Shown here: one piece after another, positions 4,216 through 32,000 of the stretch | Position numbering within the stretch: position 1 is the first letter of the stretch | How the letters are laid out: the number at the start of each line of letters is the position of its first letter | NCBI RefSeq assembly: GCF_001465295.1 | Contig: NZ_CP011035.1 | Coordinates: 725,206-757,205 of the forward strand | Length of the DNA stretch: 32,000 nucleotides | Direction of reading: 5' to 3' | DNA from: Pseudoalteromonas translucida KMM 520 | GTDB taxonomy: Bacteria; Pseudomonadota; Gammaproteobacteria; Enterobacterales; Alteromonadaceae | Position numbers and translations under genes: made by a program | Notes under the pieces: model-generated | What the model was told of the DNA's origin: nothing | The model's database searches: none | Seen by the model: only the letters and a program-made list of their open reading frames with translations

Positions 4216-4407
4216 ATGGCTGTTCCTACTCGTTCGCAAATCTCCCCTGGTACAAAAGTAAATATCGTATTAAAAGAAGATCAACGCAGCGGCACATTAA
4301 CACAAGGTGTGGTTGAGCGTTTATTAACAAAGTCACCAAACCATCCTCATGGTATTAAAGTACGTTTAGACGATGGCCAAGTAGGCCGAGTGAAAGAGAT
4401 TTTATAA
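4216..4407 (+). CDS. YwbE-family small protein (DUF2196-like)
   Basis: 63 aa. The segment GTKVNIVLKEDQRSGTLTQGVVERLLTKSPNHPHGIKVRLDDGQVGRVKEIL resembles the conserved YwbE family core. Its stop overlaps the next start (TAATG). Confidence 0.65.
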   Translation: MAVPTRSQISPGTKVNIVLKEDQRSGTLTQGVVERLLTKSPNHPHGIKVRLDDGQVGRVKEIL

Positions 4408-4925
4408 TGAGCACTTTAACAGAACAGGCTTTTTGGGATTTAGTAACCGCTCCTGATTTAGGGCTCGATCCGCAAAATGTGAGTGATAACTTAAAACTTA
4501 AACTGCACGATTTAACCGATCAGCAGTTAATTGAGTTTGATAAGTTCTTTGGTATTTGTATGCGTAAATGCTACACCTGGGATTTATTTGGCGCAGCATT
4601 TGTAATGGCCGGTTGTAACGACGAATATGGTTTTAGTGAGTTTAGATGCTGGTTAATATCGCGCGGTGCAGACGTGTTCGAAAACGCTTTACTCAACCCA
4701 GACTCAATTGCCGCCTGTACGCCTGTGTATCATGTTAACGAGCAGCCTTATCCGTACATAGATGAATACGACTTAATTGCAGGGTTACTTTACGAGGAGC
4801 GTAACGATGACGAACTGCCATTTATTCCCTCAGGAAGCGACGAGCCAAAAGGCAAACGCTTTAAAGACAAAGCTAAGTTTTTAAAACAAAGCTATCCGCT
4901 GTTATTTGCTAAGTACTGGCAGTAA
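4407..4925 (+). CDS. DUF4240-domain protein
   Basis: The FWDLV...LIEFDKFF...WDLFGAAFVMAGCNDEYGFSEFRCWLISRGADVFENAL pattern is characteristic of DUF4240. It is translationally coupled to the YwbE-like gene. Confidence 0.6.
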   Translation: MSTLTEQAFWDLVTAPDLGLDPQNVSDNLKLKLHDLTDQQLIEFDKFFGICMRKCYTWDLFGAAFVMAGCNDEYGFSEFRCWLISRGADVFENALLNPDSIAACTPVYHVNEQPYPYIDEYDLIAGLLYEERNDDELPFIPSGSDEPKGKRFKDKAKFLKQSYPLLFAKYWQ

Positions 4926-5106
4926 TATTTTCACGCCCTAATCGTTTTATTTTTAACTGCATATAAAAACGCTTAGGGTGTGTTGCTCCTTTTTAAAGCA
5001 ACACGACTTCTCTCCTTTTAAAGTAAATCTCTGTTATAGTTATAAAATTAAGCAACCAAGCATTTCGCTATTATTTAACCCACTAATTCGAGGATATAAC
5101 CACTTA

Positions 5107-5568
5107 ATGAAATACTTAACACTTGCTTTATTAGCTATTGCTTTTACCAGCGCTCATGCAGTTGCAACCCCAAGTAATAAAAGCCGGTTTATTCCGCTTT
5201 TAAAAACAAAACTGGGTGCTTATGAAGTGGTGTCGGCTAATTCAGCGTTATGCGTTAATAGCCAATTGAGTTTTGTAAATCCAGATAATGAAGATGCCGG
5301 TTTTACTTTAGGTGAGCAAATTATTTTTGACTCATTACATAACGGAACACAAACGGTTAAAAAACCCGATTTTTGTTTTGTTACTAGCTCATTAAAATAC
5401 AAAAGCGATGGCATTGAAAACGGCTTAAGAATGAGCCGCTGCGAAAACCCAGCTAACGAAAAAACAATTAGCCAAAGCATTTATTTTTTAGCTAACGACA
5501 CACTTAAATATACGTTAAGTCAGCCAAGCGTTGCATGCACATTTAAAAAAGTACCCGACAGTCAATAA
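5107..5568 (+). CDS. Secreted hypothetical protein (Cys-containing, signal peptide)
   Basis: The internal ATG at 5107 gives MKYLTLALLAIAFTSAHA|VATP, a classical Sec signal peptide. The track's GTG start at 4978 adds 43 non-signal residues and is unlikely. Confidence 0.55.
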   Translation: MKYLTLALLAIAFTSAHAVATPSNKSRFIPLLKTKLGAYEVVSANSALCVNSQLSFVNPDNEDAGFTLGEQIIFDSLHNGTQTVKKPDFCFVTSSLKYKSDGIENGLRMSRCENPANEKTISQSIYFLANDTLKYTLSQPSVACTFKKVPDSQ

Positions 5569-5589
5569 CGCATAAGTAAGCTGTACTTA

Positions 5590-6846
5590 CTAACAATATA
5601 TTTTGGGTATATCACGCCAGCGCGTGGTGTACTGCGGGGATAAAAAATTCCTGTTCATATGCCAACCTTCATTTAATTTACTGCTTGCTAAACTAAGCAT
5701 TCCTTTACCGTAGCGTTTATTTATAGCATCAAGACAATTCATTAATACTGGATTGTCGGTGCGTTTATTAAATAAATCGTCTTGTTGAAACTCCTGCGCA
5801 ATAAGCTCTAAAGCACCCACACCACATTTATAAAAGCGAATACCCGGCTGATATATTTGCTCAAACACTTGCGATACCGCATTAGCCATTACGCAGGTGT
5901 CGTTAGTGGGGCTGGCAAATGTATACATATACGACTTTTTATAAAAAACGTTTTCGTGAGACGAACTCGCCGCAAAAATATAAAGTTGTTTGCAAAGCGA
6001 TTTTTGCTTTCTTAATTTACTTGCAACCACAGTAACGTGATTAATTAACGCAGTTTTAAGTGCCGTTGGCTCGTATATACGCTCGCCAAAGCTTCGGGTC
6101 GAAAATACCTCGCGCTTATCTTGGCGTACGTCGTCCCAATTTAAGCAAGGTATGCCATTAAGCTCATTTACAGTGCGCTCTACCACCACACTAAATGCAC
6201 GGCGCATACTGTTAGGGTTTTGCTGCGCTAATTGCCATGCAGTGTGTATGTTCATTACTTTTAATTTTTTGGCTAAACGTTTACCAATACCCCATATATC
6301 TTGGCAACTCATTCTTTGTAAAATAGCTTTACGGCTTGCTTCGCAGTTAATAACAGCAACGCCATTAAATCCGGATAACTTTTTAGCGGCATGGTTTGCC
6401 GCTTTTGCTAAAGTAGCCGTAGGGCCAAAGCCAACACCAACGGGGAGCTTAGTTTCGCGCCATACGGTGCGCCTAATAGTGTGCCCATATGCAAACCAGT
6501 CATTAATAACAGGGGTGTAACCGTTAAAGTGTAAAAATGACTCGTCGATACTGTATACGTGTTGCACGTCGCAAAAACGGCCAATAACGTTCATCATTTT
6601 GTCGCTTAAATCAGCATATAACTCATAATTACTAGAGCGAATTACTACGTTATTTTGCGCAAGTAACTGCTTAACTTTAAAGTAAGGGGCAAATTTAGGA
6701 ATGTTTAAACGCCGAGCAATGGGACACACCGCGCATATGCAACCGTCGTTATTGGTAAGCACTACCACAGGTTTTGAGCGAATAGCCGGGTCGAATACTT
6801 TTTCGGCACTGGCATAAAAGGCCACCGCGTCTACTAGGGCATACAT
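5590..6846 (-). CDS. umuC: Translesion DNA polymerase V catalytic subunit UmuC (Y-family)
   Basis: The N-terminus MYALVDAVAFYASAEKVFDP compares with E. coli UmuC MFALCDVNAFYASCETVF. The SIDESF catalytic motif is present, the length is 418 aa, and the gene lies immediately downstream of and overlapping umuD. Confidence 0.9.
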   Translation of the reverse strand: MYALVDAVAFYASAEKVFDPAIRSKPVVVLTNNDGCICAVCPIARRLNIPKFAPYFKVKQLLAQNNVVIRSSNYELYADLSDKMMNVIGRFCDVQHVYSIDESFLHFNGYTPVINDWFAYGHTIRRTVWRETKLPVGVGFGPTATLAKAANHAAKKLSGFNGVAVINCEASRKAILQRMSCQDIWGIGKRLAKKLKVMNIHTAWQLAQQNPNSMRRAFSVVVERTVNELNGIPCLNWDDVRQDKREVFSTRSFGERIYEPTALKTALINHVTVVASKLRKQKSLCKQLYIFAASSSHENVFYKKSYMYTFASPTNDTCVMANAVSQVFEQIYQPGIRFYKCGVGALELIAQEFQQDDLFNKRTDNPVLMNCLDAINKRYGKGMLSLASSKLNEGWHMNRNFLSPQYTTRWRDIPKIYC

Positions 6847-7247
6847 AGCAGTAACTCAGGGCTTTGGCGATGCAGACGAATTGAGCGTGTAACTACGCCC
6901 TCAAGCTGAAACTCATCGCAGGATGTTAGTTGTACTGGTTTATACAAAGGTGATGCCGAGAGCAGCCGGGCATTGGTTTTATCAAGTAGCTTACACACAA
7001 ATAAGCCATTTAAATTAGCAACTATAACGTCGCCATTTTTAGCCTGTTCAGCGCGGTCTACTATTAGCAAGTCGCCTTCAAAAATACCCACATCTTGCAT
7101 TGAACTGCCAGAGGCAACGCCAATAAAAGTGGCGTCGGGGTGCTTTATTAATAGCTCATCAAGCGACACACCAAGCTCGCTATATGGCGCAGCAGGCGAT
7201 TCAAACCCGCACACACCCGCTTCTATATAAATGGGAATAACAAACAT
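6834..7247 (-). CDS. umuD: UmuD (LexA-like self-cleaving S24 peptidase, Pol V accessory subunit)
   Basis: It has a CGFESPAAPY N-terminal arm, a cleavage-region/S24 fold (ASGSSM with the Ser nucleophile, and a downstream Lys in VCKLL), and a LexA box upstream. The first ATG is at 7247. The track start at 7256 is a TTG. Confidence 0.85.
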   Translation of the reverse strand: MFVIPIYIEAGVCGFESPAAPYSELGVSLDELLIKHPDATFIGVASGSSMQDVGIFEGDLLIVDRAEQAKNGDVIVANLNGLFVCKLLDKTNARLLSASPLYKPVQLTSCDEFQLEGVVTRSIRLHRQSPELLLCMP

Positions 7248-7268
7248 AAAGATCAACCAAAACGCATA

Positions 7269-16420: not shown

Positions 16421-16439
16421 CGATAGGAAGCTATAAATA

Positions 16440-16467
16440 ACAACCCATAAATTACGTTATGTTAAAT
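16440..16467 (+). other. dif-like Xer recombination site (11+6+11 architecture)
   Basis: ACAACCCATAA-ATTACG-TTATGTTAAAT compared with E. coli dif GGTGCGCATAA-TGTATA-TTATGTTAAAT. The XerD arm matches 11/11 and the XerC arm 6/11, with the inner CATAA conserved. The site is intergenic. Confidence 0.55.
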
Positions 16468-17237: not shown

Positions 17238-18449
17238 ATGCTAGTTGCTTTGGTTGATACGTTAAAACAATTGAGATATCAAATTGCTCATCTTGAAGAT
17301 AATACTTTAAATTCAGAATATCCAGAACTGGCTACCTTTATACAGCAAGTTGGCTTGACTGTAACTGAATCAAAACAAGATCTTACCTTCTTATACCAGT
17401 TTTTATATGTTTATGGTCGCAAATCGGAAGCAACCTATAGTCGATTTAGAAGTGAACTTGAACGTTTTTATTTATGGGCATGGTTAGTCGCTGAAAAGTC
17501 AGTATTTGATTTAAAGCGCGAAGATATTGAAGGTTATGTAGATTTTGTTGTTGAACCAGATAAAGCCTGGGCTACAACATCAGTACAATGGCGTTATAAA
17601 GACGAACAAGGTATTCGCCGCTTAAATACAAATTGGCGCCCTTTCATCCAAAAAGAATCAATTGCTAGCCAACAAACATTATCGGCAATGTTTACTGCAC
17701 TTAACGTATTTTATAAATTTGCTATTTTAGAAGAAAAAACCTTTGCAAATTTTGTGCCGGTAGTAAAAAAGAATAGCCCCTATTTGGTGGTTCAATCGCA
17801 AATACAGATCCCCGATACGCTAAGCGATATACAATGGGAATATGTGTTTGGGGTAACGCGCGACTTATGTGAGCAACAACCTGATCTAGAAAGAAATTTA
17901 TTTACTCTGGCATGTTTAAAAGGATTATATTTACGAATATCCGAATTGTCAGAGCGGCCACAATGGTCGCCCGTTATGTCGCATTTTTGGCAAGACAACG
18001 ATGGCTTTTGGTTTTTGCGTATTATGGGTAAGGGTAATAAATTACGAGATGTAACTCTAAGCGATGATTTTGTTGAATATTTAAAACGCTACCGACTTTA
18101 TCGTGGTTTACCTGCCCTACCACGCGTTGATGAATCTGATCCCTTAGTGCATAAAATTCGTGGCCAAGGTGGCATGACTGTTAGGCAAATACGACGTTTG
18201 GTACAACAAAGTTTTGACTTAGCTCAGCAATCTTTACTCGATGATGGTTTTAAAGATGATTCTGAACAACTTGAAGCTGCAACCGCACATTGGCTTAGAC
18301 ATACAGGTGCAACACACGATGCGCAAACACGACCACTCAAACATTTATCTGAAGATTTAGGACACGCAAAAATAGCAACTACAGACCAAATTTATATTCA
18401 AACAAATATAAAAGAACGTGCAAAATCTGGTTTAAAAAGGAAAATATAA
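17238..18449 (+). CDS. Tyrosine site-specific recombinase (phage-integrase family)
   Basis: The catalytic signature is GLYLRISEL (box I Arg), HWLRHTGATH (HxxR) and LGHAKIATTDQIY (His...Tyr nucleophile). There is an N-terminal SAM-like core-binding domain. Length is 403 aa. Confidence 0.85.
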   Translation: MLVALVDTLKQLRYQIAHLEDNTLNSEYPELATFIQQVGLTVTESKQDLTFLYQFLYVYGRKSEATYSRFRSELERFYLWAWLVAEKSVFDLKREDIEGYVDFVVEPDKAWATTSVQWRYKDEQGIRRLNTNWRPFIQKESIASQQTLSAMFTALNVFYKFAILEEKTFANFVPVVKKNSPYLVVQSQIQIPDTLSDIQWEYVFGVTRDLCEQQPDLERNLFTLACLKGLYLRISELSERPQWSPVMSHFWQDNDGFWFLRIMGKGNKLRDVTLSDDFVEYLKRYRLYRGLPALPRVDESDPLVHKIRGQGGMTVRQIRRLVQQSFDLAQQSLLDDGFKDDSEQLEAATAHWLRHTGATHDAQTRPLKHLSEDLGHAKIATTDQIYIQTNIKERAKSGLKRKI

Positions 18450-28115: not shown

Positions 28116-28386
28116 ATTCATTCCTCATTCCTATTTACCTGATACAACGAAATTAACGTATGCAGGGCTGTTTGTTCAAGGACTAAATTCACTATTTACT
28201 AATTATTTAGTTATGGGTTAGGTAATTAATATATTTAGCCGTATATGTTGGGCCCTTAGCGCAAGTATAAAATGGTAAATAGAAAACATATAATCAATAT
28301 AAAACATATAGTTAAGTTAGATCATGGTTACTTTTGAGTTGTTGACCTACATTCAATCTGAGTTAATTGTTATAACAGACTAAATT

Positions 28387-28403
28387 AGGAACACATCATA
28401 CTT
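28387..28403 (-). other. Ter-like motif copy a (candidate Tus-binding site)
   Basis: The minus strand reads AAGTATGATGTGTTCCT. It is one of three near-identical 17-mers. Its first 11 nt match E. coli Ter positions 4-14 (AAGTATGTTGT) at 10/11. Confidence 0.45.
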
Positions 28404-29111
28404 TAAATGCATCAGGTGTATCATTAGCTTTACAGCAAACTTAAATAATAATTAACCAATGACTATGCGCTTTTAAAAATACATGCTATGTCGCGTTTTA
28501 TTTGCCACAACAACACATATAAGAGGTTTATATACAGCGGCTAATGCTCAACCTGGTTAAGGTTAAAGTACTCATTTTTAGTTCGGTACTAAGTTTTATA
28601 AAAATGTGAATACTGGTAGTTATTATCGAGGTTAAAATTTATTACAACACGTTTAGTTTTTACGCTTAATAATCTTATGCAGTTAAGCGTAATAGATATA
28701 ACAACGTAAGTATTACCCCTTTGGTATAATACTATACGTAAAGCTTATATCAGCTATGTATTCAAGTCACCCGTTTTGAACGGCGCTAATTTATACCACT
28801 AGCCTCTTCATTAGTTCAGTTACAGGGCAACTCAAAACGGTTTGCGCTCTACTGTAATTAATAAATGTATATTCAGCGCTCACAAACTAAATACTTCAAG
28901 CACCCTAAAGTATGACCCGGTTAATAATATCAAGCTCACTTAAAAGCCTAGCTACAAATTATGGCTAAAGTTAAATTACACTGAGAAGCTAATAGACCGT
29001 TTTTTGCTGTAACTTATATCGGTATACAAATGTGAATATTGGGGAATTATTATTAATATCCAACCTACTCAAATGCATAAACACGAGTTATTAAGTTTAA
29101 CAAAAGAGATA

Positions 29112-29128
29112 AAGAACACATCGTACTT
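29112..29128 (-). other. Ter-like motif copy b (candidate Tus-binding site)
   Basis: The minus strand reads AAGTACGATGTGTTCTT. It is the inverted partner of copy c, with 18-bp arms (29111-29128 and 29211-29228) complementary at 17/18. Confidence 0.45.
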
Positions 29129-29210
29129 AATTAAGTATAAGGTTATCTAAGCACTGAGTAAAATTAAATTATTAGTTAAACAAAGATAAGGTTATGTGCG
29201 ATAATTAGTT

Positions 29211-29227
29211 AAGTAAGATGTGTTCTT
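29211..29227 (+). other. Ter-like motif copy c, abutting the tus ribosome-binding site
   Basis: The plus strand reads AAGTAAGATGTGTTCTT, followed by tGGAGGttgcATG (the tus start). The position is analogous to TerB upstream of E. coli tus. Confidence 0.45.
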
Positions 29228-29237
29228 TGGAGGTTGC

Positions 29238-30113
29238 ATGGTAACTAAAGTACAAATAAGAAGTCAGTTTGATTTAATGAGCGAACTAACATTAAGGCTA
29301 ATAGAAGAGCTTAACCTGTGTGAATATACAAAAGCCGAATATTATCAACTTCCCGATATAAGCACAGTTGATGAAAATAAAGTAGCCGAATCGATTAAGG
29401 TTACTAAAATATCAGGCGAACTAGCACATAAAGCTATATTAAATTCCTTTACTGATATTTATAAAAAACAAGGGCTAAGTAGCCGGGTTTTAAAGCGTCA
29501 CCCTGGCCTATTGGTTATAAAAAATGCTGACAAACAAGCATTAATTAATCGAATTGCTCAAGTAAATAAAGCAAAAGCAGCGTTTAAAGAGTGCATTTTA
29601 GCTATTGATAACAACGATGCTCGTTTTGAAGCGGTACATAATGCAGTACCCAACTTAATTACTTTGGCTGCTTATCGAAAAATTCATAGTGAACATGAAT
29701 CGCCTTTTTCAGTACGATTTACCTGGATGCACAAACATGCAACTAAAACACTGACCAAAAAAATGGCCCTCGAAATGTTACAAAAGTCAGCTAGTTATAG
29801 AAACCCCAGAATGATCGATCAGCAAAAATGGCAGGCGCTAGTAGCACAAGAGCAATTACGGGTAGCAAGTTTAGGTGAAAAAGAAAAACTTAGAATTAGG
29901 CGCCCTACTCGGGTTAGCCCTCAGGTAAATGTGCGTTATACCGCGCAAAACCGTTATCACGTAAGTGCGGCGCTACCTTTTATTTTAATAAACCCAGAAC
30001 CAGACGTAAAACTGGGGTTATTACCAAATTACGAAAAGCCATTAAGTCATCCACGAAAACGTGACTATGATTTTTTAGTAGATCGACTTTATTTAGAACA
30101 AGTAGAAAAGTGA
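29238..30113 (+). CDS. tus: DNA replication terminus site-binding protein (Tus homologue)
   Basis: By-eye alignment to E. coli Tus: [22 protein letters not shown] / [31 protein letters not shown] / [26 protein letters not shown] / LKIKRPVKVQPIARVWY; LPFILIN / TPLIALIN. The ATG at 29238 has a GGAGG 4 nt upstream. The track's GTG at 29220 is unlikely. Confidence 0.82.
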   Translation: [291 protein letters not shown]

Positions 30114-30122
30114 TTATGTTAA

Positions 30123-30145
30123 AAAGGTCACGCTAGGTGACCTTT
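30123..30145. terminator. Bidirectional terminator between convergent tus and rep genes
   Basis: AAAGGTCAC-gctag-GTGACCTTT with A-run and T-rich flanks. Confidence 0.75.
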
Positions 30146-30172: not shown

Positions 30173-31402
30173 TTACTTATCTACTATTTCAACAAGTTTG
30201 TCTTCATCAATAAGCACAGCATTTTCTACAATACGCTTACCGCCTTGTATTTCAATACGTTTATTGTGTTTATTCAGAGTAAGTATTTCATCACAAAATT
30301 GATCTGATGGATGCATTTCGTAAGTGTAGTCAATAATATTACCGGTTTTATCGTCTTTAACATTGGTAATACTGTACTCAGAGATAGCCCCTTTTTCGAT
30401 CAAATCTTTCATTGTTGTGGTCATATCACGACGCAGCGCTTTTAATTTATTTTCGGTAATATTATCCGTTGAATAAATTGAGCCGTACTTTTCCATAATA
30501 GACAATAATCTAAAATGGTATGTTTTTCCCGGAGCTGCATAACGCCAAAGGTGATATAAGCGCAGCATCATCCAACGCGATAATCCGCGTTTTAATTCTT
30601 GGGCGCTGTTAAAGTAATATCCTTTGTATTCAAGGTTATCAATCATGTTATGTACAAATGCATTTAAACACGCAACACATTTAACATTACCGCCTTGCCC
30701 TTTTTTTCCACTAAAATGCAGTGACGATAAAAAGTTCATATTCGATTCGTAAAACGAATCATCAATGTTTGTATTTTTTGTATCTGTTGCTGAATATTTA
30801 AACGAAAGTTTTGAGCCTTGTAATGCTTCAAGTGATTCTTTAATTTGTGGATATGGCATAGATTGGCCAACGGTTTTCAGCTCTTGTGCTAATTCGTTCA
30901 TCGAAAAAACAACAGCATATTGAATACCGGACTTAAAATTTATTTTTACTATTTTGCCTTTAGAAGCTAAACGGATCAGCGCACGCTCTACTTTTTCTTC
31001 TCTATCTGACGGCCAAACCAAATATTCTACGTCTTCACCATCTTTGCGTGTGCTAACAACCGCCGGCGTTATTTTTAATTCGCCGTCGTACAAAATACCA
31101 TCTATTTTTTCAGATATTTTGCGTGTAATTATTGTTTTTTTAGGTGCTTCTTCTAATGGTAATTTTTTATGCCCCGAACGGACAAAGCGTCCCCATAAAT
31201 CATAATGGTTAAAAGTATTCGAATAAGCACGTAATCCATGAGCTGCATTTTCTATCGAAATCCGCACATCTTTATTATCTGTAAACAGTGCTAAGCTTTC
31301 ATTATCAATTGCACTTTCCACCCCGTGAATTTGGCCCCTTAGTGTATCGGGCAAGTTATCTACCGAGATGTTGACCTTTCGGCTCATTGTTGTTATTTCC
31401 AT
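30173..31402 (-). CDS. Plasmid-type replication initiator (Rep; possibly TrfA-like), family not resolved
   Basis: This large ORF (about 405-410 aa) is very AT-rich and lies directly adjacent to 19-bp iterons, with inverted iterons over its upstream region. The segment LSRWMMLRLYHLWRYAAPGKTYHFRLLSIMEKYGS loosely recalls the TrfA motif LAQWLHGYYSSHAKPFPVKVETLRELSGS. The start is ambiguous (ATG at 31402 or 31387; the track's start at 31429 is a GTG). Confidence 0.6.
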   Translation of the reverse strand: MEITTMSRKVNISVDNLPDTLRGQIHGVESAIDNESLALFTDNKDVRISIENAAHGLRAYSNTFNHYDLWGRFVRSGHKKLPLEEAPKKTIITRKISEKIDGILYDGELKITPAVVSTRKDGEDVEYLVWPSDREEKVERALIRLASKGKIVKINFKSGIQYAVVFSMNELAQELKTVGQSMPYPQIKESLEALQGSKLSFKYSATDTKNTNIDDSFYESNMNFLSSLHFSGKKGQGGNVKCVACLNAFVHNMIDNLEYKGYYFNSAQELKRGLSRWMMLRLYHLWRYAAPGKTYHFRLLSIMEKYGSIYSTDNITENKLKALRRDMTTTMKDLIEKGAISEYSITNVKDDKTGNIIDYTYEMHPSDQFCDEILTLNKHNKRIEIQGGKRIVENAVLIDEDKLVEIVDK

Positions 31403-31457
31403 TTTTATTGCGACAGCTAATAACAACACATAAAGACAAAAAAGTTAAATGTTTAAG

Positions 31458-31476
31458 TTAGTATAAAAGTGATCTG
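31458..31476 (+). repeat. Iteron 1
   Basis: TTAGTATAAAAGTGATCTG; consensus TTAGTAWAAARNTGATCTG. Confidence 0.75.
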
Positions 31477-31493
31477 AGCTAAAATAAAACCTT

Positions 31494-31512
31494 CGGATCA
31501 CTATTATACTAA
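31494..31512 (-). repeat. Iteron 2 (inverted)
   Basis: The minus strand reads TTAGTATAATAGTGATCCG. Confidence 0.7.
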
Positions 31513-31535
31513 GCGGATGCTAATTAACTTAATTT

Positions 31536-31554
31536 CAGATCATTATTTTACTAA
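31536..31554 (-). repeat. Iteron 3 (inverted)
   Basis: The minus strand reads TTAGTAAAATAATGATCTG. Confidence 0.7.
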
Positions 31555-31565
31555 CTAGGCGGTTA

Positions 31566-31584
31566 CAAATCTCATTTTTACTAA
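31566..31584 (-). repeat. Iteron 4 (inverted, degenerate, lacks GATC)
   Basis: The minus strand reads TTAGTAAAAATGAGATTTG. Confidence 0.45.
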
Positions 31585-31662
31585 CTCAGTGAGATTTTTG
31601 TCCATTACAAAGCTAAATTTTTAATATTTAACACGACAAATTAACTAAAAAACTAAAAGCCC

Positions 31663-31671
31663 TGTTGATAA
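31663..31671 (-). promoter_or_regulatory. DnaA-box-like 9-mer (one mismatch)
   Basis: TGTTGATAA equals TTATCAACA on the minus strand, versus the consensus TTATCCACA. It lies in the AT-rich spacer between the iteron groups. Confidence 0.3.
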
Positions 31672-31688
31672 GCATATATTGAGTTAGC

Positions 31689-31725
31689 ATAGATCTGATC
31701 TGTACCTACTACAGATCAGATCTAT
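31689..31725. repeat. Perfect 16-bp-arm palindrome carrying four GATC sites
   Basis: ATAGATCTGATCTGTA-cctac-TACAGATCAGATCTAT. The half-site AGATCTGATCT recurs at 31893-31903. Confidence 0.9.
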
Positions 31726-31779
31726 ACTAATTAAAAGCCTTCTTTTACTACAGAGTCGGTGTATAACTTTATAATTTAC

Positions 31780-31798
31780 TTAGTATAAAACTGATCTA
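31780..31798 (+). repeat. Iteron 5
   Basis: TTAGTATAAAACTGATCTA. Confidence 0.75.
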
Positions 31799-31862
31799 AC
31801 AGACCTTTTTTGTGCACAACTTAATGATTAACCTGTGTGTAACTATTGTTTTAATTTACAGC

Positions 31863-31881
31863 TTAGTAAAAAGCTGATCTG
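31863..31881 (+). repeat. Iteron 6
   Basis: TTAGTAAAAAGCTGATCTG. Confidence 0.75.
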
Positions 31882-31907
31882 CAAGTAGATAAAGATCTGA
31901 TCTTAAC

Positions 31908-31926
31908 CAAGTATAAAGTTGATCTG
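31908..31926 (+). repeat. Iteron 7
   Basis: CAAGTATAAAGTTGATCTG. Confidence 0.7.
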
Positions 31927-32000
31927 CTTATTTTATTATTATTCATATAAATCATGTGTTTATCACCTATATTTAAGCCTCTATCCTTTAATACCTTATA

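What the first reader, a model, noticed from the sequence alone, without database searches (positions are those of the whole stretch)
30173..32000. Plasmid-type origin: Rep gene plus seven 19-bp iterons (four as an operator-like direct/inverted cluster over the rep upstream region, three direct) in a strongly GATC-enriched field
The 19-mer TTAGTAWAAARNTGATCTG occurs at 31458 (+), 31494 (-), 31536 (-), 31566 (-, degenerate), 31780 (+), 31863 (+) and 31908 (+). The cluster of one direct and three inverted copies lies within about 60-180 bp of the rep start. That is the classic arrangement for initiator autorepression. The three direct copies, together with AT-rich tracts, look like the origin proper.

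Six of the seven iterons embed GATC. I count 12 GATC in 31440-32000, against roughly 2 expected from base composition (a rough estimate). This suggests Dam/SeqA-type methylation control, as in oriC, P1 oriR or Vibrio ori2. The Rep protein is larger than Rep_3/RepA-type initiators and I could not place it confidently; there is a faint TrfA-like motif. Core-metabolism genes (asd, ppsA, DAHP synthase) sit on the same molecule, so this would be a chromid rather than a dispensable plasmid. The origin is cut by the window end, so parAB and further iterons may lie beyond 32000.
Basis: partly seen in the sequence, partly recalled or inferred. Interest (0 to 1): 0.7.

Follow-up and report, generated by a model that had tools for sequence, protein, structure and literature searches.

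The report
Known Pseudoalteromonas chromid replication origin

Summary
That gives nine copies against 0.2 expected, none elsewhere in the window. There are 12 GATC in 31440-32000 against about 1.4 expected.

The window is the last 32 kb of P. haloplanktis TAC125 chromosome II. The published ori2 (634716..159, 1 DnaA box, 12 GATC, between repA and parA) maps exactly onto 31388-32000, so the record end cuts the origin. repA plus ori2 was shown to be the minimal replicon in two congeners (Xie 2021). The finding is therefore already known.

Added here:
- An iteron map whose TTAGTA and GATC cores are conserved across about 80 species.
- Iteron half-sites that co-vary with RepA, not with ParB.
- RepA has no Pfam hit. 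It is a distant homologue of IncC and IncP-2 RepA, with a predicted double winged-helix fold like RctB, pi and RepE.

Outside the given coordinates I found a conserved 13-mer, GTATGATGTGTTC, similar to E. coli TerB. It occurs three times upstream of the adjacent tus gene, in opposed orientations. It is present in all unidirectional chromids examined and absent near tus in the bidirectional P. spongiae clade. These are candidate ter sites that published searches did not find.

The parts
30173..31387 (-). repA, the chromid replication initiator (404 aa from the ATG at 31387)
   Evidence: 100% aa identity to the HL-AS2 chromid protein, and 84-98% to RepA of about 80 Pseudoalteromonas chromids. 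27% identity over 344 aa to IncC RepA, E 7e-34. AF2 model with pLDDT 90; the best PDB matches are RctB domains 2-3, pi and RepE.
31420..31448 (-). Candidate repA promoter: -35 TTAACT (31443-31448), 17-nt spacer, -10 TGTTAT (31420-31425)
   Evidence: My reading of blocks that are invariant in the 14-species alignment. It is below the threshold of the promoter scan. Inference only.
31458..31476 (+). Iteron 1, TTAGTATAAAAGTGATCTG (promoter-proximal; inverted pair with iteron 2)
   Evidence: (I8)
31494..31512 (-). Iteron 2
31536..31554 (-). Iteron 3
31566..31584 (-). Iteron 4, degenerate, without GATC; absent in several clades
31663..31671 (-). DnaA box: TTATCAACA here, the perfect TTATCCACA in most relatives
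   Evidence: Xie 2021 Table S3b lists 1 DnaA box for TAC125 ori2.
31684..31730 (.). Palindromic iteron pair (31684-31702 + and 31712-31730 -) carrying four GATC
   Evidence: I2, 88% complementary. All four GATC are invariant in 14 species.
31780..31798 (+). Iteron 7 (direct)
31811..31842 (.). Degenerate DnaA-box-like 9-mers (TGTGCACAA at 31811-31819, TGTGTGTAA at 31834-31842); closer to TGTGnATAA in other species
   Evidence: Consensus line of the 14-species alignment. Weak in this strain.
31863..31881 (+). Iteron 8 (direct)
31888..31906 (.). Half-iteron with a GATCTGATC doublet
   Evidence: (D2)
31908..31926 (+). Iteron 9 (direct)
31927..31960 (.). AT-rich stretch next to the last iteron; candidate DNA unwinding element
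   Evidence: 83% A+T in 31920-31949. AT-richness is kept in 14 species. Function is inferred.
31388..32000 (.). ori2 as published for TAC125 (634716..159). The window holds 613 of its 772 bp; the last 159 bp and parA2 lie at the start of the record.
30123..30145 (.). GC-rich hairpin between the convergent repA and tus genes (terminator-like)
29238..30113 (+). [quoted passage not shown]
   Evidence: Pfam Ter 1e-96, NCBIfam NF002810 7e-108. PDB 1ecr E 6e-27, with F140 and H144 conserved.
29212..29226 (+). Candidate ter site, TerB-like: AGTAAGATGTGTTCT. Same strand as tus; AAGTA starts 27 nt before the ATG.
   Evidence: E. coli TerB has the same orientation, 30 nt before the tus ATG.
29113..29127 (-). 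Candidate ter site in the opposite orientation (AGTACGATGTGTTCT)
28388..28402 (-). Candidate ter site, same orientation as 29113 (AGTATGATGTGTTCC)
16440..16467 (+). dif2-like XerCD site: ACAACCCATAA ATTACG TTATGTTAAAT
   Evidence: The published TAC125 dif2 (619752-619779) maps to window 16424-16451 and overlaps it.

Best explanation

Shown here or in the literature:
- The location matches the published ori2.
- repA plus ori2 is the minimal replicon in two congeners.
- RepA has a double winged-helix initiator fold (predicted).
- Nine 19-bp repeats with two conserved half-sites, TTAGTA and GATCTG about 12 bp apart, fill the origin.
- The left half-site changes together with RepA in relatives.

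Inferred mechanism:
1. RepA monomers bind the iterons, one winged helix per half-site.
2. Host DnaA, at the conserved DnaA box, helps open the AT-rich stretch at 31927-31960.
3. The inverted iterons beside the repA promoter, and the central palindrome, bind RepA for autorepression and/or pairing.
4. Every functional iteron carries a GATC, so firing leaves the origin hemimethylated. This delays RepA rebinding and/or allows SeqA sequestration, as in Vibrio ori2. The result is one round per cell cycle.
5. Tus is encoded next to repA. Bound to the conserved TerB-like 13-mers upstream of tus, it stops the fork that leaves through repA at 29113 and 28388. It also stops the fork that has travelled round the chromid, at 29212. 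The net result is unidirectional replication through parA2 that ends beside the origin, 13 kb past dif2.
For: Identity:
- RepA is 100% identical to the HL-AS2 chromid protein, and the synteny is rmuC-helicase-parB2-parA2-ori2-repA-tus-DAHP synthase-ppsA.
- TAC125 Table S3b coordinates, 12 GATC and 1 DnaA box fit 31388-32000 exactly.
- The minimal-replicon experiment is in Xie 2021, PMC7858055.

Iterons:
- 9 copies against 0.2 expected, all in ori2.
- Positions and the TTAGTA/GATC cores are conserved in 80 species.
- Relatives with RepA at 63-66% identity keep the design, but with TTAGAGA or TTAGATA half-sites. One of them has a different ParAB family, so the repeats follow RepA and not ParB.

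Fold:
- pLDDT 90.3. The top 45 PDB matches are all iteron initiators: RctB 3.4e-9, pi 2e-6, RepE 5e-6.
- 9 of 64 distant family members weakly hit Rep3_N.

GATC:
- 12 against 1.4 expected.
- 10 of the 12 are invariant in 14 species; the other two are kept in 12 of 14.
- 12-17 GATC per origin in nearly all 80 species.

ter:
- 223 sites with at most 1 mismatch in 502 kb of loci. All but 3 lie beyond tus as seen from ori2.
- The layout is conserved.
- The 8-mer TAAGTATG is shared with TerB, and the geometry relative to tus matches E. coli.
- P. tunicata and P. ulvae (unidirectional) have three perfect copies. The P. spongiae clade (bidirectional) has none within 10 kb.
Against: - No binding or replication data exist for this strain.
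- The iterons are irregularly spaced and of mixed orientation, not a tandem array.
- The DnaA box has one mismatch here, and the other DnaA-like boxes have two.
- The promoter scan found no repA promoter.
- dam and seqA were not checked in this genome. SeqA pairing rules were not tested.
- The ter polarity is assumed from E. coli.
- Two of the four C6-pocket residues of E. coli Tus (I79, G149) differ in this Tus.
- The absence of the 13-mer in the P. spongiae clade could reflect a changed Tus specificity rather than loss of sites.
- GC skew in the window does not show direction.
Confidence: 0.88

Rival explanations
1. The 19-mers are centromere (parS) or par-operator sites bound by ParB2 or ParA2, not RepA iterons. 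They lie between repA and parA2, and a second cluster sits directly after the parB2 stop codon, which is where P1 and F keep their centromeres.
For: A second cluster of five copies lies immediately downstream of parB2 in HL-AS2 and P. donghaensis. parA2 is divergent from repA across the same intergenic region.
Against: The second cluster is absent in P. xiamenensis and NC201, which keep the same parA2B2. The same iteron design occurs in a contig whose ParAB is of a different family (PF08775 ParB, HTH_54 ParA), while its RepA is homologous. A plasmid with 50%-identical RepA has the motif downstream of repA. The copies interleave with the DnaA box and the AT-rich stretch.
Confidence: 0.06
2. The GATC in each iteron is only part of the RepA recognition sequence. 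Dam methylation and SeqA play no regulatory role at ori2.
For: GATC sits at a fixed place in the right half-site, as a recognition element would. Related plasmid iterons also carry it. IncC iterons of the same protein family lack it, which shows the family can work without GATC.
Against: Extra GATC lie outside the half-site proper and are also invariant: the GATCTGATC doublets at 31692/31697, 31714/31719 and 31894/31899. The count of 12-17 per origin is kept across the genus. Many pairs are about 22 bp apart. The analogous Vibrio ori2 uses methylation-dependent initiator binding (PMC8826520).
Confidence: 0.25
3. ori2 fires a single fork by itself (intrinsically unidirectional). The conserved 13-mers are only tus autoregulatory operators, or sites for another factor, and not fork barriers that set direction.
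For: Xie 2021 leave open whether one or two forks form. One copy overlaps the tus ribosome-binding region, like the autoregulatory TerB. The P. rubra-group arrays have T where E. coli has the lock-forming G6.
Against: At least two conserved copies point the way that would stop a fork leaving ori2, some up to 1.5 kb from tus and even inside a coding gene in P. tunicata. That placement is unnecessary for autoregulation. The orientation bias is strict: 162 plus against 61 minus, the latter tus-proximal. The sites are missing exactly in the bidirectional clade.
Confidence: 0.3

Closest known systems
Pseudoalteromonas chromid ori2/RepA (Medigue 2005; Xie et al. 2021, mBio, PMC7858055)
   Same: It is the same element. 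The intergenic position between repA and parA, the 772-bp length, the 12 GATC, the 1 DnaA box, the adjacent tus, and dif2 15 kb away all match.
   Different: Nothing differs in kind. The papers I could read do not describe the iterons or a ter sequence, and they state that RepA has no relatives outside the genus.
IncC (IncA/C) and IncP-2 plasmid RepA replicons
   Same: Homologous initiator: 27% identity over 344 aa with IncC RepA, E 7e-34; about 25% with IncP-2 RepA. Iterons are 19-20 bp.
   Different: IncC iterons (ATATGTGGGAACGCTGCACG, about 12 direct copies) lie downstream of repA and lack GATC. Here the iterons are upstream, of mixed orientation, of different sequence, and each carries GATC.
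Vibrio cholerae Chr2 RctB/ori2
   Same: Chromid origin next to parA2B2. The initiator has a WH fold; RctB domains 2-3 are the best structural match. GATC lies inside the initiator sites, with a conserved DnaA box.
   Different: RepA has 404 aa and no detectable sequence similarity to RctB. No 39-mer-type sites or crtS were looked for or seen. Replication here is unidirectional, with tus beside the origin.
Mini-F RepE and R6K pi iteron replicons
   Same: Predicted WH1-WH2 fold. 19-bp iterons with two half-sites one helical turn apart. Inverted copies near the rep promoter, a DnaA box and an AT-rich element.
   Different: No Rep_3 HMM hit. RepA has an extra beta-rich N-terminal region of about 125 aa. 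The iterons are dispersed rather than tandem.
Tus-Ter: E. coli TerB-tus, and the origin-proximal ter sites of plasmid R1
   Same: A tus homologue. A Ter-like site in the same orientation about 30 nt before the tus ATG. The 8-mer TAAGTATG, which includes the G6 position, is shared. Opposed sites form a trap. Being next to a plasmid-type origin matches the R1 arrangement discussed in PMC10331603.
   Different: The right half of the site differs: ATGTGTTC against TTGTAAC. The trap is only about 100 bp wide and 2.2 kb from the origin. Binding and arrest are untested.

Membership tests
Pseudoalteromonas chromid ori2/repA replicon | Intergenic origin between repA and parA2, in the conserved cluster rmuC-helicase-parB2-parA2-ori2-repA-tus | tested here: met
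   Annotated neighbourhood of the 100%-identical HL-AS2 locus. tus lies next to repA in 74 of 81 loci.
Pseudoalteromonas chromid ori2/repA replicon | RepA orthologous to the experimentally tested RepA of P. tunicata and P. spongiae | tested here: met
   87% identity to P. tunicata RepA (P0005). 84% to the cluster that holds P. spongiae RepA (P0020/P0203).
Pseudoalteromonas chromid ori2/repA replicon | Published coordinates and content of TAC125 ori2 (772 bp, 12 GATC, 1 DnaA box) | tested here: met
   613 bp in the window plus 159 bp beyond it gives 772 bp. 12 GATC and one DnaA box.
Pseudoalteromonas chromid ori2/repA replicon | Autonomous replication of repA+ori2 | not testable with these tools
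Iteron-type theta replicons (WH1-WH2 Rep initiators) | Initiator with two winged-helix domains | tested here: met
   AF2 pLDDT 90.3. Foldseek hits to RctB domains 2-3, pi and RepE with probability 1.00, TM (target-normalised) 0.5-0.6. This is a prediction, not a solved structure.
Iteron-type theta replicons (WH1-WH2 Rep initiators) | Several 17-22-bp repeats next to rep that co-vary with the Rep protein | tested here: met
Iteron-type theta replicons (WH1-WH2 Rep initiators) | DnaA box and AT-rich unwinding element beside the iterons | tested here: met
   The box has one mismatch in this strain.
Iteron-type theta replicons (WH1-WH2 Rep initiators) | Rep binds the iterons; dimers repress the rep promoter | not testable with these tools
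   Inverted pair 31458/31494 lies 10 bp upstream of the candidate -35. This is inference.
Pfam Rep_3 (PF01051) / TrfA (PF07042) | HMM match above the gathering score | tested here: not met
   No Pfam or NCBIfam hit for RepA at E<=1. There are only weak Rep3_N hits in 9 of 64 distant relatives, and one TrfA hit at 9e-4.
IncC (IncA/C) replicon | RepA of the IncC type, with its 19-bp direct iterons downstream of repA | tested here: not met
   The protein is only 27% identical. The iterons differ in sequence, position and orientation. The two share a protein family, not a replicon group.
Vibrio-type RctB/ori2 | RctB orthologue (four domains, about 658 aa) | tested here: not met
   404 aa. The similarity is at fold level to domains 2-3 only, at 11-12% identity.
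Dam/SeqA-controlled origins | Conserved cluster of GATC in the origin | tested here: met
Dam/SeqA-controlled origins | Host encodes Dam and SeqA; the origin stays hemimethylated after firing | not tested
   The genes are not in the window. I recall from the 'Dam cohort' literature (cited in PMC8826520) that Alteromonadales have them; that is memory, not a test.
Tus-Ter fork barrier | tus gene | tested here: met
Tus-Ter fork barrier | Ter-like site upstream of tus in TerB orientation, with oppositely oriented partners | tested here: met
Tus-Ter fork barrier | Cytosine-lock pocket residues of Tus (I79, F140, H144, G149) | tested here: inconclusive
   F140 and H144 are kept. I79 is K and G149 is N in the alignment to 1ecr.
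Tus-Ter fork barrier | Tus binding and polar fork arrest | not testable with these tools
   Supported only by the natural comparison: sites are present in unidirectional clades and absent near tus in the bidirectional clade.

The most novel reading that the evidence does not exclude
The conserved 13-mers GTATGATGTGTTC upstream of tus are the ter sites of the Pseudoalteromonas chromid, which published searches did not find. With Tus they would form a fork trap about 100 bp wide, 2.2 kb from ori2. The trap would catch one of two forks started at an ordinary iteron origin, and it would end the round of replication. Loss of these origin-proximal sites, rather than a change in initiation, would then be what made the P. 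spongiae-clade chromids bidirectional. Separately, RepA binding to its GATC-containing iterons may depend on methylation, as with Vibrio RctB, but arrived at independently in an IncC-family initiator.
Probability: 0.5. Interest if true: 0.6.

Novelty: already known. Interest (0 to 1): 0.35.

Why it matters
The origin itself adds nothing new. It is the published ori2 of the reference Pseudoalteromonas genome.

Three details would interest people who study multi-chromosome bacteria:
1. A concrete iteron map, with an invariant GATC in each iteron. This makes methylation-gated initiation testable in a second chromid lineage that is independent of Vibrio.
2. RepA can be placed in the IncC/IncP-2 initiator family. 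This corrects the published statement that it has no relatives outside the genus, and it points to the kind of plasmid the chromid came from.
3. Candidate ter sites. How these chromids replicate in one direction, and how some became bidirectional, is stated as open in the 2021 and 2023 literature. Defined 13-mers with a clear orientation pattern turn that question into a simple deletion and marker-frequency experiment.

Tried and rejected
- Pfam and NCBIfam on RepA gave nothing.
- A profile search of PDB sequences gave only chance hits. The family placement came from tblastn against plasmids, an all-against-library HMM search and structure prediction.
- Rfam on the whole window found no family, so there is no sign of an R1-like antisense RNA.
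- The promoter scan found no repA promoter above its threshold.
- GC skew over the window does not show direction.
- A search with the E. coli dif 25-mer found nothing. A pattern anchored on the XerD arm was needed.
- My first Tus translation was out of frame and was redone.
- The TAC125 genome paper (PMC1240074) and the P. spongiae chromid record (NZ_CP011040.1) are not held. I therefore could not read the 2005 description, nor scan the P. spongiae terminus for relocated ter sites.
- A literature search for Pseudoalteromonas methylomes gave nothing useful.
- The tus-upstream region of a more distant relative (L087) shows no recognisable Ter-like site.
- I considered that RepA is specifically closer to RctB than to RepE or pi, and rejected it. 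The TM-scores are similar, and the better E-value reflects a longer alignment.
Full report
**1. Observation**

The degenerate 19-mer TTAGTAWAAARNTGATCTG, allowing up to three mismatches, matches nine times in the 32-kb window. All matches lie between 31458 and 31926. Dinucleotide-preserving shuffles give 0.2.

Two further copies, at 31684 (+) and 31712 (-), form a palindrome with 26-nt arms that are 88% complementary.

A weight matrix built from the nine copies scores them at 21-28.5 bits. The next best site anywhere in the window scores 10.9 bits.

There are 12 GATC in 31440-32000. Base composition predicts 1.39, and the rest of the window has 69 in 31.4 kb. The Poisson probability is 8e-9. 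Eight of the nine iterons contain GATC.

**2. Where the window comes from**

The Rep ORF, read from the ATG at 31387 (404 aa), is 100% identical to a protein of the 680-kb 'plasmid' of Pseudoalteromonas sp. HL-AS2. It is 84-98% identical to proteins on chromids of many Pseudoalteromonas species.

The annotated neighbourhood is rmuC, a DEAD/DEAH helicase, a parB-like gene, parA, the intergenic origin, repA, tus, class II DAHP synthase, the PEP synthase regulator and ppsA.

Xie et al. 2021 (PMC7858055), Table S3b, lists ori2 for P. haloplanktis TAC125 chromosome II (635,328 bp) as follows:
- ori2 at 634716..159, 772 bp, 71.9% A+T
- 1 DnaA box and 12 GATC
- between repA and parA
- dif2 at 619752-619779

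The stretch from the base after the repA ATG to the window end is 613 bp, exactly 635328-634716+1. In HL-AS2 the intergenic region continues for another 159 bp to parA.

The window is therefore, almost certainly, the last 32 kb of that record. The origin is 'cut' only because the record was linearised inside ori2.

The same paper shows by truncation experiments that repA plus ori2 is necessary and sufficient for replication in P. spongiae and P. tunicata. The core of the finding, including the GATC count, is thus already published.

**3. The origin in detail**

I fetched 80 loci from different Pseudoalteromonas species and scanned them with the iteron matrix.

- *Positions.* Sites recur at fixed distances from the repA ATG: about -89, -125, -167, the -315/-343 palindrome, -411, -494 and -539. 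Only two weak hits lie outside the origin in about 500 kb of flanks.
- *GATC count.* The 800 bp upstream of repA hold 12-17 GATC in nearly every species, against 2-8 per kb in the flanks.
- *Conserved cores.* In an alignment of ori2 from 14 divergent species (mean column identity 60%), the TTAGTA and GATC cores of the iterons are invariant. The spacer between them varies.
- *Individual GATC.* Ten of the twelve GATC are invariant. The other two are kept in 12 of 14 species.
- *DnaA boxes.* The alignment shows a conserved DnaA box, TGTGGATAA, just left of the palindrome. This strain has TGTTGATAA at 31663-31671. Further TGTGnATAA-like boxes lie between the direct iterons, but they are degenerate in this strain.
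- *Other conserved elements.* An AT-rich stretch follows the last iteron (31927-31960). Beyond the window end come conserved TTAACC blocks and a clear parA2 promoter.
- *repA promoter.* A plausible promoter (-35 TTAACT, 17 nt, -10 TGTTAT, 31420-31448 on the minus strand) falls on invariant columns. It is my reading only. The promoter scan did not report it.

**4. Are the repeats iterons or partition sites?**

A second cluster of five full copies lies directly after the parB2 stop codon in HL-AS2, and four copies in P. donghaensis. That is where P1 and F keep their centromeres, so the partition reading deserved a test. Three results argue against it.

- The second cluster is absent from P. xiamenensis and strain NC201, which have the same parA2B2.
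- Two contigs have RepA only 66% and 63% identical. Their upstream regions carry many repeats of the same design, but with a changed left half-site (TTAGAGA or TTAGATA instead of TTAGTA). They still carry the embedded GATC and the GATCTGATC palindromes. One of these contigs has a ParA/ParB pair of a different family.
- A 144-kb P. carrageenovora plasmid with 50%-identical RepA carries TTAGTAAAAnnnTGATCT sites downstream of its repA.

The repeats follow RepA, not ParB.

**5. The initiator**

It is not an orphan, however.

- *Plasmid relatives.* tblastn finds it in 1,263 plasmid records. These include more than 1,000 conjugative plasmids of Klebsiella, Salmonella and Escherichia, and the IncP-2 megaplasmids of Pseudomonas aeruginosa.
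- *IncC RepA.* Against the RepA of the IncC plasmid pNDM-1_Dok01, identity is 27% over 344 residues, E 7e-34.
- *Contrast with the literature.* Xie et al. stated that RepA has no significant hits outside Pseudoalteromonas. A later paper mentions Aeromonas plasmid hits.
- *Family size.* A profile search of 1.8 billion representatives gives 849 family members at E<=0.001.
- *IncC origin differs.* About 12 direct copies of ATATGTGGGAACGCTGCACG lie downstream of repA, without GATC. The relationship is one of protein family, not of replicon type.
- *Predicted structure.* An AlphaFold2 model built on 63 family members has mean pLDDT 90.3 and pTM 0.89. Its 45 best PDB matches are all iteron-binding initiators: RctB domains 2-3 of Vibrio cholerae (E 3.4e-9), pi of R6K, and RepE of mini-F.
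- *Weak HMM hits.* A few distant members weakly hit Rep3_N, RPA or TrfA.

The two conserved half-sites about 12 bp apart fit one winged helix per half-site, as in RepE. This last point is inference.

**6. GATC and cell-cycle control**

The conservation of the GATC goes beyond the half-site. The doublets GATCTGATC in the palindrome and at 31894/31899 are also conserved, and many pairs are about 22 bp apart.

In Vibrio cholerae the affinity of RctB for its iterons depends on Dam methylation, and SeqA may sequester ori2 (as summarised in PMC8826520). The same logic is the most economical reading here.

It remains untested. I could not check dam or seqA in this genome. A rival reading, in which GATC is merely part of the RepA site, stays open at about one in four.

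**7. tus and candidate ter sites (outside the given coordinates)**

*What was known.* The gene convergent with repA is tus (Pfam Ter 1e-96). That tus sits beside ori2 is known. So is the unidirectional replication of most Pseudoalteromonas chromids, with dif2 4-27 kb from ori2.

No ter site has been reported in the papers I could read:
- Xie et al. searched with the E. coli consensus and found none. [quoted passage not shown]
- A 2023 review marks the ter site with a question mark.

*The motif.* Comparing the region upstream of tus across species shows a strikingly conserved 13-mer, GTATGATGTGTTC. In the window it occurs three times with at most one mismatch, all in the 1.1-kb non-coding region upstream of tus:
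- 29212-29226 (+)
- 29113-29127 (-)
- 28388-28402 (-)

Across the loci there are 223 sites with at most one mismatch in 502 kb, where about 0.6 would be expected. All but three lie beyond tus as seen from ori2.

*Layout.* In loci oriented with repA on the plus strand, the layout is conserved:
- one copy immediately upstream of the tus start, on the tus sense strand
- one copy in the opposite orientation about 105-140 bp further on
- a third copy, in that same opposite orientation, 0.2-1.5 kb away

*Comparison with E. coli.* The extended consensus TTAAGTATGATGTGTTCTTT shares the 8-mer TAAGTATG with E. coli TerB (AATAAGTATGTTGTAACTAAAGT). That 8-mer includes the G6 position, whose partner cytosine forms the Tus lock.

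In E. coli, TerB lies on the tus sense strand with AAGTATG starting 30 nt before the ATG. Here the distance is 27 nt.

The window Tus keeps F140 and H144 of the cytosine pocket, but not I79 or G149.

*Predicted polarity.* Assume polarity is as in E. coli, where a fork travelling in the direction of tus transcription is stopped at TerB (established knowledge). Then:
- The site at 29212 stops forks arriving from the left, that is, after a full round.
- The sites at 29113 and 28388 stop a fork that leaves ori2 through repA and tus.
- Replication would then proceed only through parA2 and would end beside the origin.

This agrees with dif2 lying 15 kb to the left of ori2.

**8. A natural test of the ter reading**

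- P. tunicata was shown by marker frequency to replicate its chromid unidirectionally. It has three perfect copies in the canonical layout, and so does P. ulvae.
- Chromids of the P. spongiae clade were shown to replicate bidirectionally, with dif2 opposite ori2. They have no copy, even allowing two mismatches, within 10 kb either side of repA and tus.
- Tus of that clade is 42-45% identical to the others. Tus proteins of P. tunicata or P. ulvae and P. xiamenensis differ from each other by a similar amount (44-46% identical), and all three keep the perfect motif.

This fits the trap model.

It does not prove it. The specificity of Tus may have changed in that clade, and I could not scan its terminus region.

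The P. rubra group has arrays of 11-17 same-orientation copies of T[TA]ATGATGTGTTC between repA and tus. These copies lack the G6 equivalent. I cannot explain them.

**9. Verdict**

But the element is the already described ori2/repA of the TAC125 chromid, so novelty is 'already known'.

- the iteron map and its conservation
- the co-variation of the iterons with RepA
- the family and fold placement of RepA
- the candidate ter sites

The ter sites lie outside the given coordinates and are not proven. They address a question the literature states as open, so I score interest above what a known origin alone would deserve.

Noticed in passing
window 28388-28402 (-), 29113-29127 (-), 29212-29226 (+): Three copies of a conserved 13-mer, GTATGATGTGTTC, resembling E. 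coli TerB, lie upstream of tus in opposed orientations. The motif is present in about 70 unidirectional chromids and absent within 10 kb of tus in the bidirectional P. spongiae clade. They are candidate ter sites, not reported in the papers I could read.
   Followed up: yes
L054, L058-L062 (P. rubra group), about 4400-7100 in each locus: Arrays of 11-17 same-orientation copies of T[TA]ATGATGTGTTC, spaced 110-190 bp, lie between repA and tus, partly as 176- and 309-bp tandem units. The base equivalent to Ter G6 is T in these copies. Their role is unknown; Tus titration or weak barriers are possibilities.
   Followed up: partly
L001 5808-6011 (HL-AS2, beyond the window end); L085 1818-2014: A second cluster of four or five full iterons with GATC lies directly after the parB2 stop codon. 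It is present in HL-AS2 and P. donghaensis and absent in P. xiamenensis and NC201. It could be a copy-control (pairing) locus like P1 incA.
   Followed up: partly
window 16440-16467 (+); ORF 17238-18449 (+): A dif-like XerCD site, ACAACCCATAA-ATTACG-TTATGTTAAAT, lies in a non-coding gap. It overlaps the published dif2 coordinates with a 16-bp offset. A tyrosine recombinase gene lies 0.8 kb away, which may indicate an integrated element at dif.
   Followed up: partly
L083 1906, 2154, 2410 (P. carrageenovora plasmid pKCTC22325): A 144-kb plasmid whose RepA is only 50% identical carries the same iteron type as the chromid (TTAGTAAAAnnnTGATCT), downstream of its repA. This raises the question of cross-talk or incompatibility between such plasmids and the chromid.
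   Followed up: no
L091 2158 (+), 17469 (+) (P. spongiae-clade chromid): Isolated iteron-like sites scoring 25 bits lie 7-8 kb on either side of ori2. No such outliers occur in the window.
   Followed up: no
window 30173-31387 (-): The published statement that chromid RepA has no significant relatives outside Pseudoalteromonas does not hold. It is homologous to RepA of IncC and IncP-2 plasmids, and the family has 849 representatives at E<=0.001.
   Followed up: yes
window 28122-29219: This 1.1-kb stretch between the DAHP synthase gene and tus has no ORF of 40 aa or more and no Rfam match. Its length varies greatly between species. Apart from the ter-like sites, its content is unexplained.
   Followed up: no
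window 5590-7256 (-): A umuC-like gene (NF002955, 1e-110), with an overlapping upstream ORF that is probably umuD, lies on the chromid about 25 kb from ori2.
   Followed up: no
window 31388-31397 and 31419-31428: A perfect 10-bp inverted repeat (TGTTGTTATT / AATAACAACA) spans the repA start and the candidate -10 region. The left arm is not conserved in other species, so it is probably not functional.
   Followed up: partly
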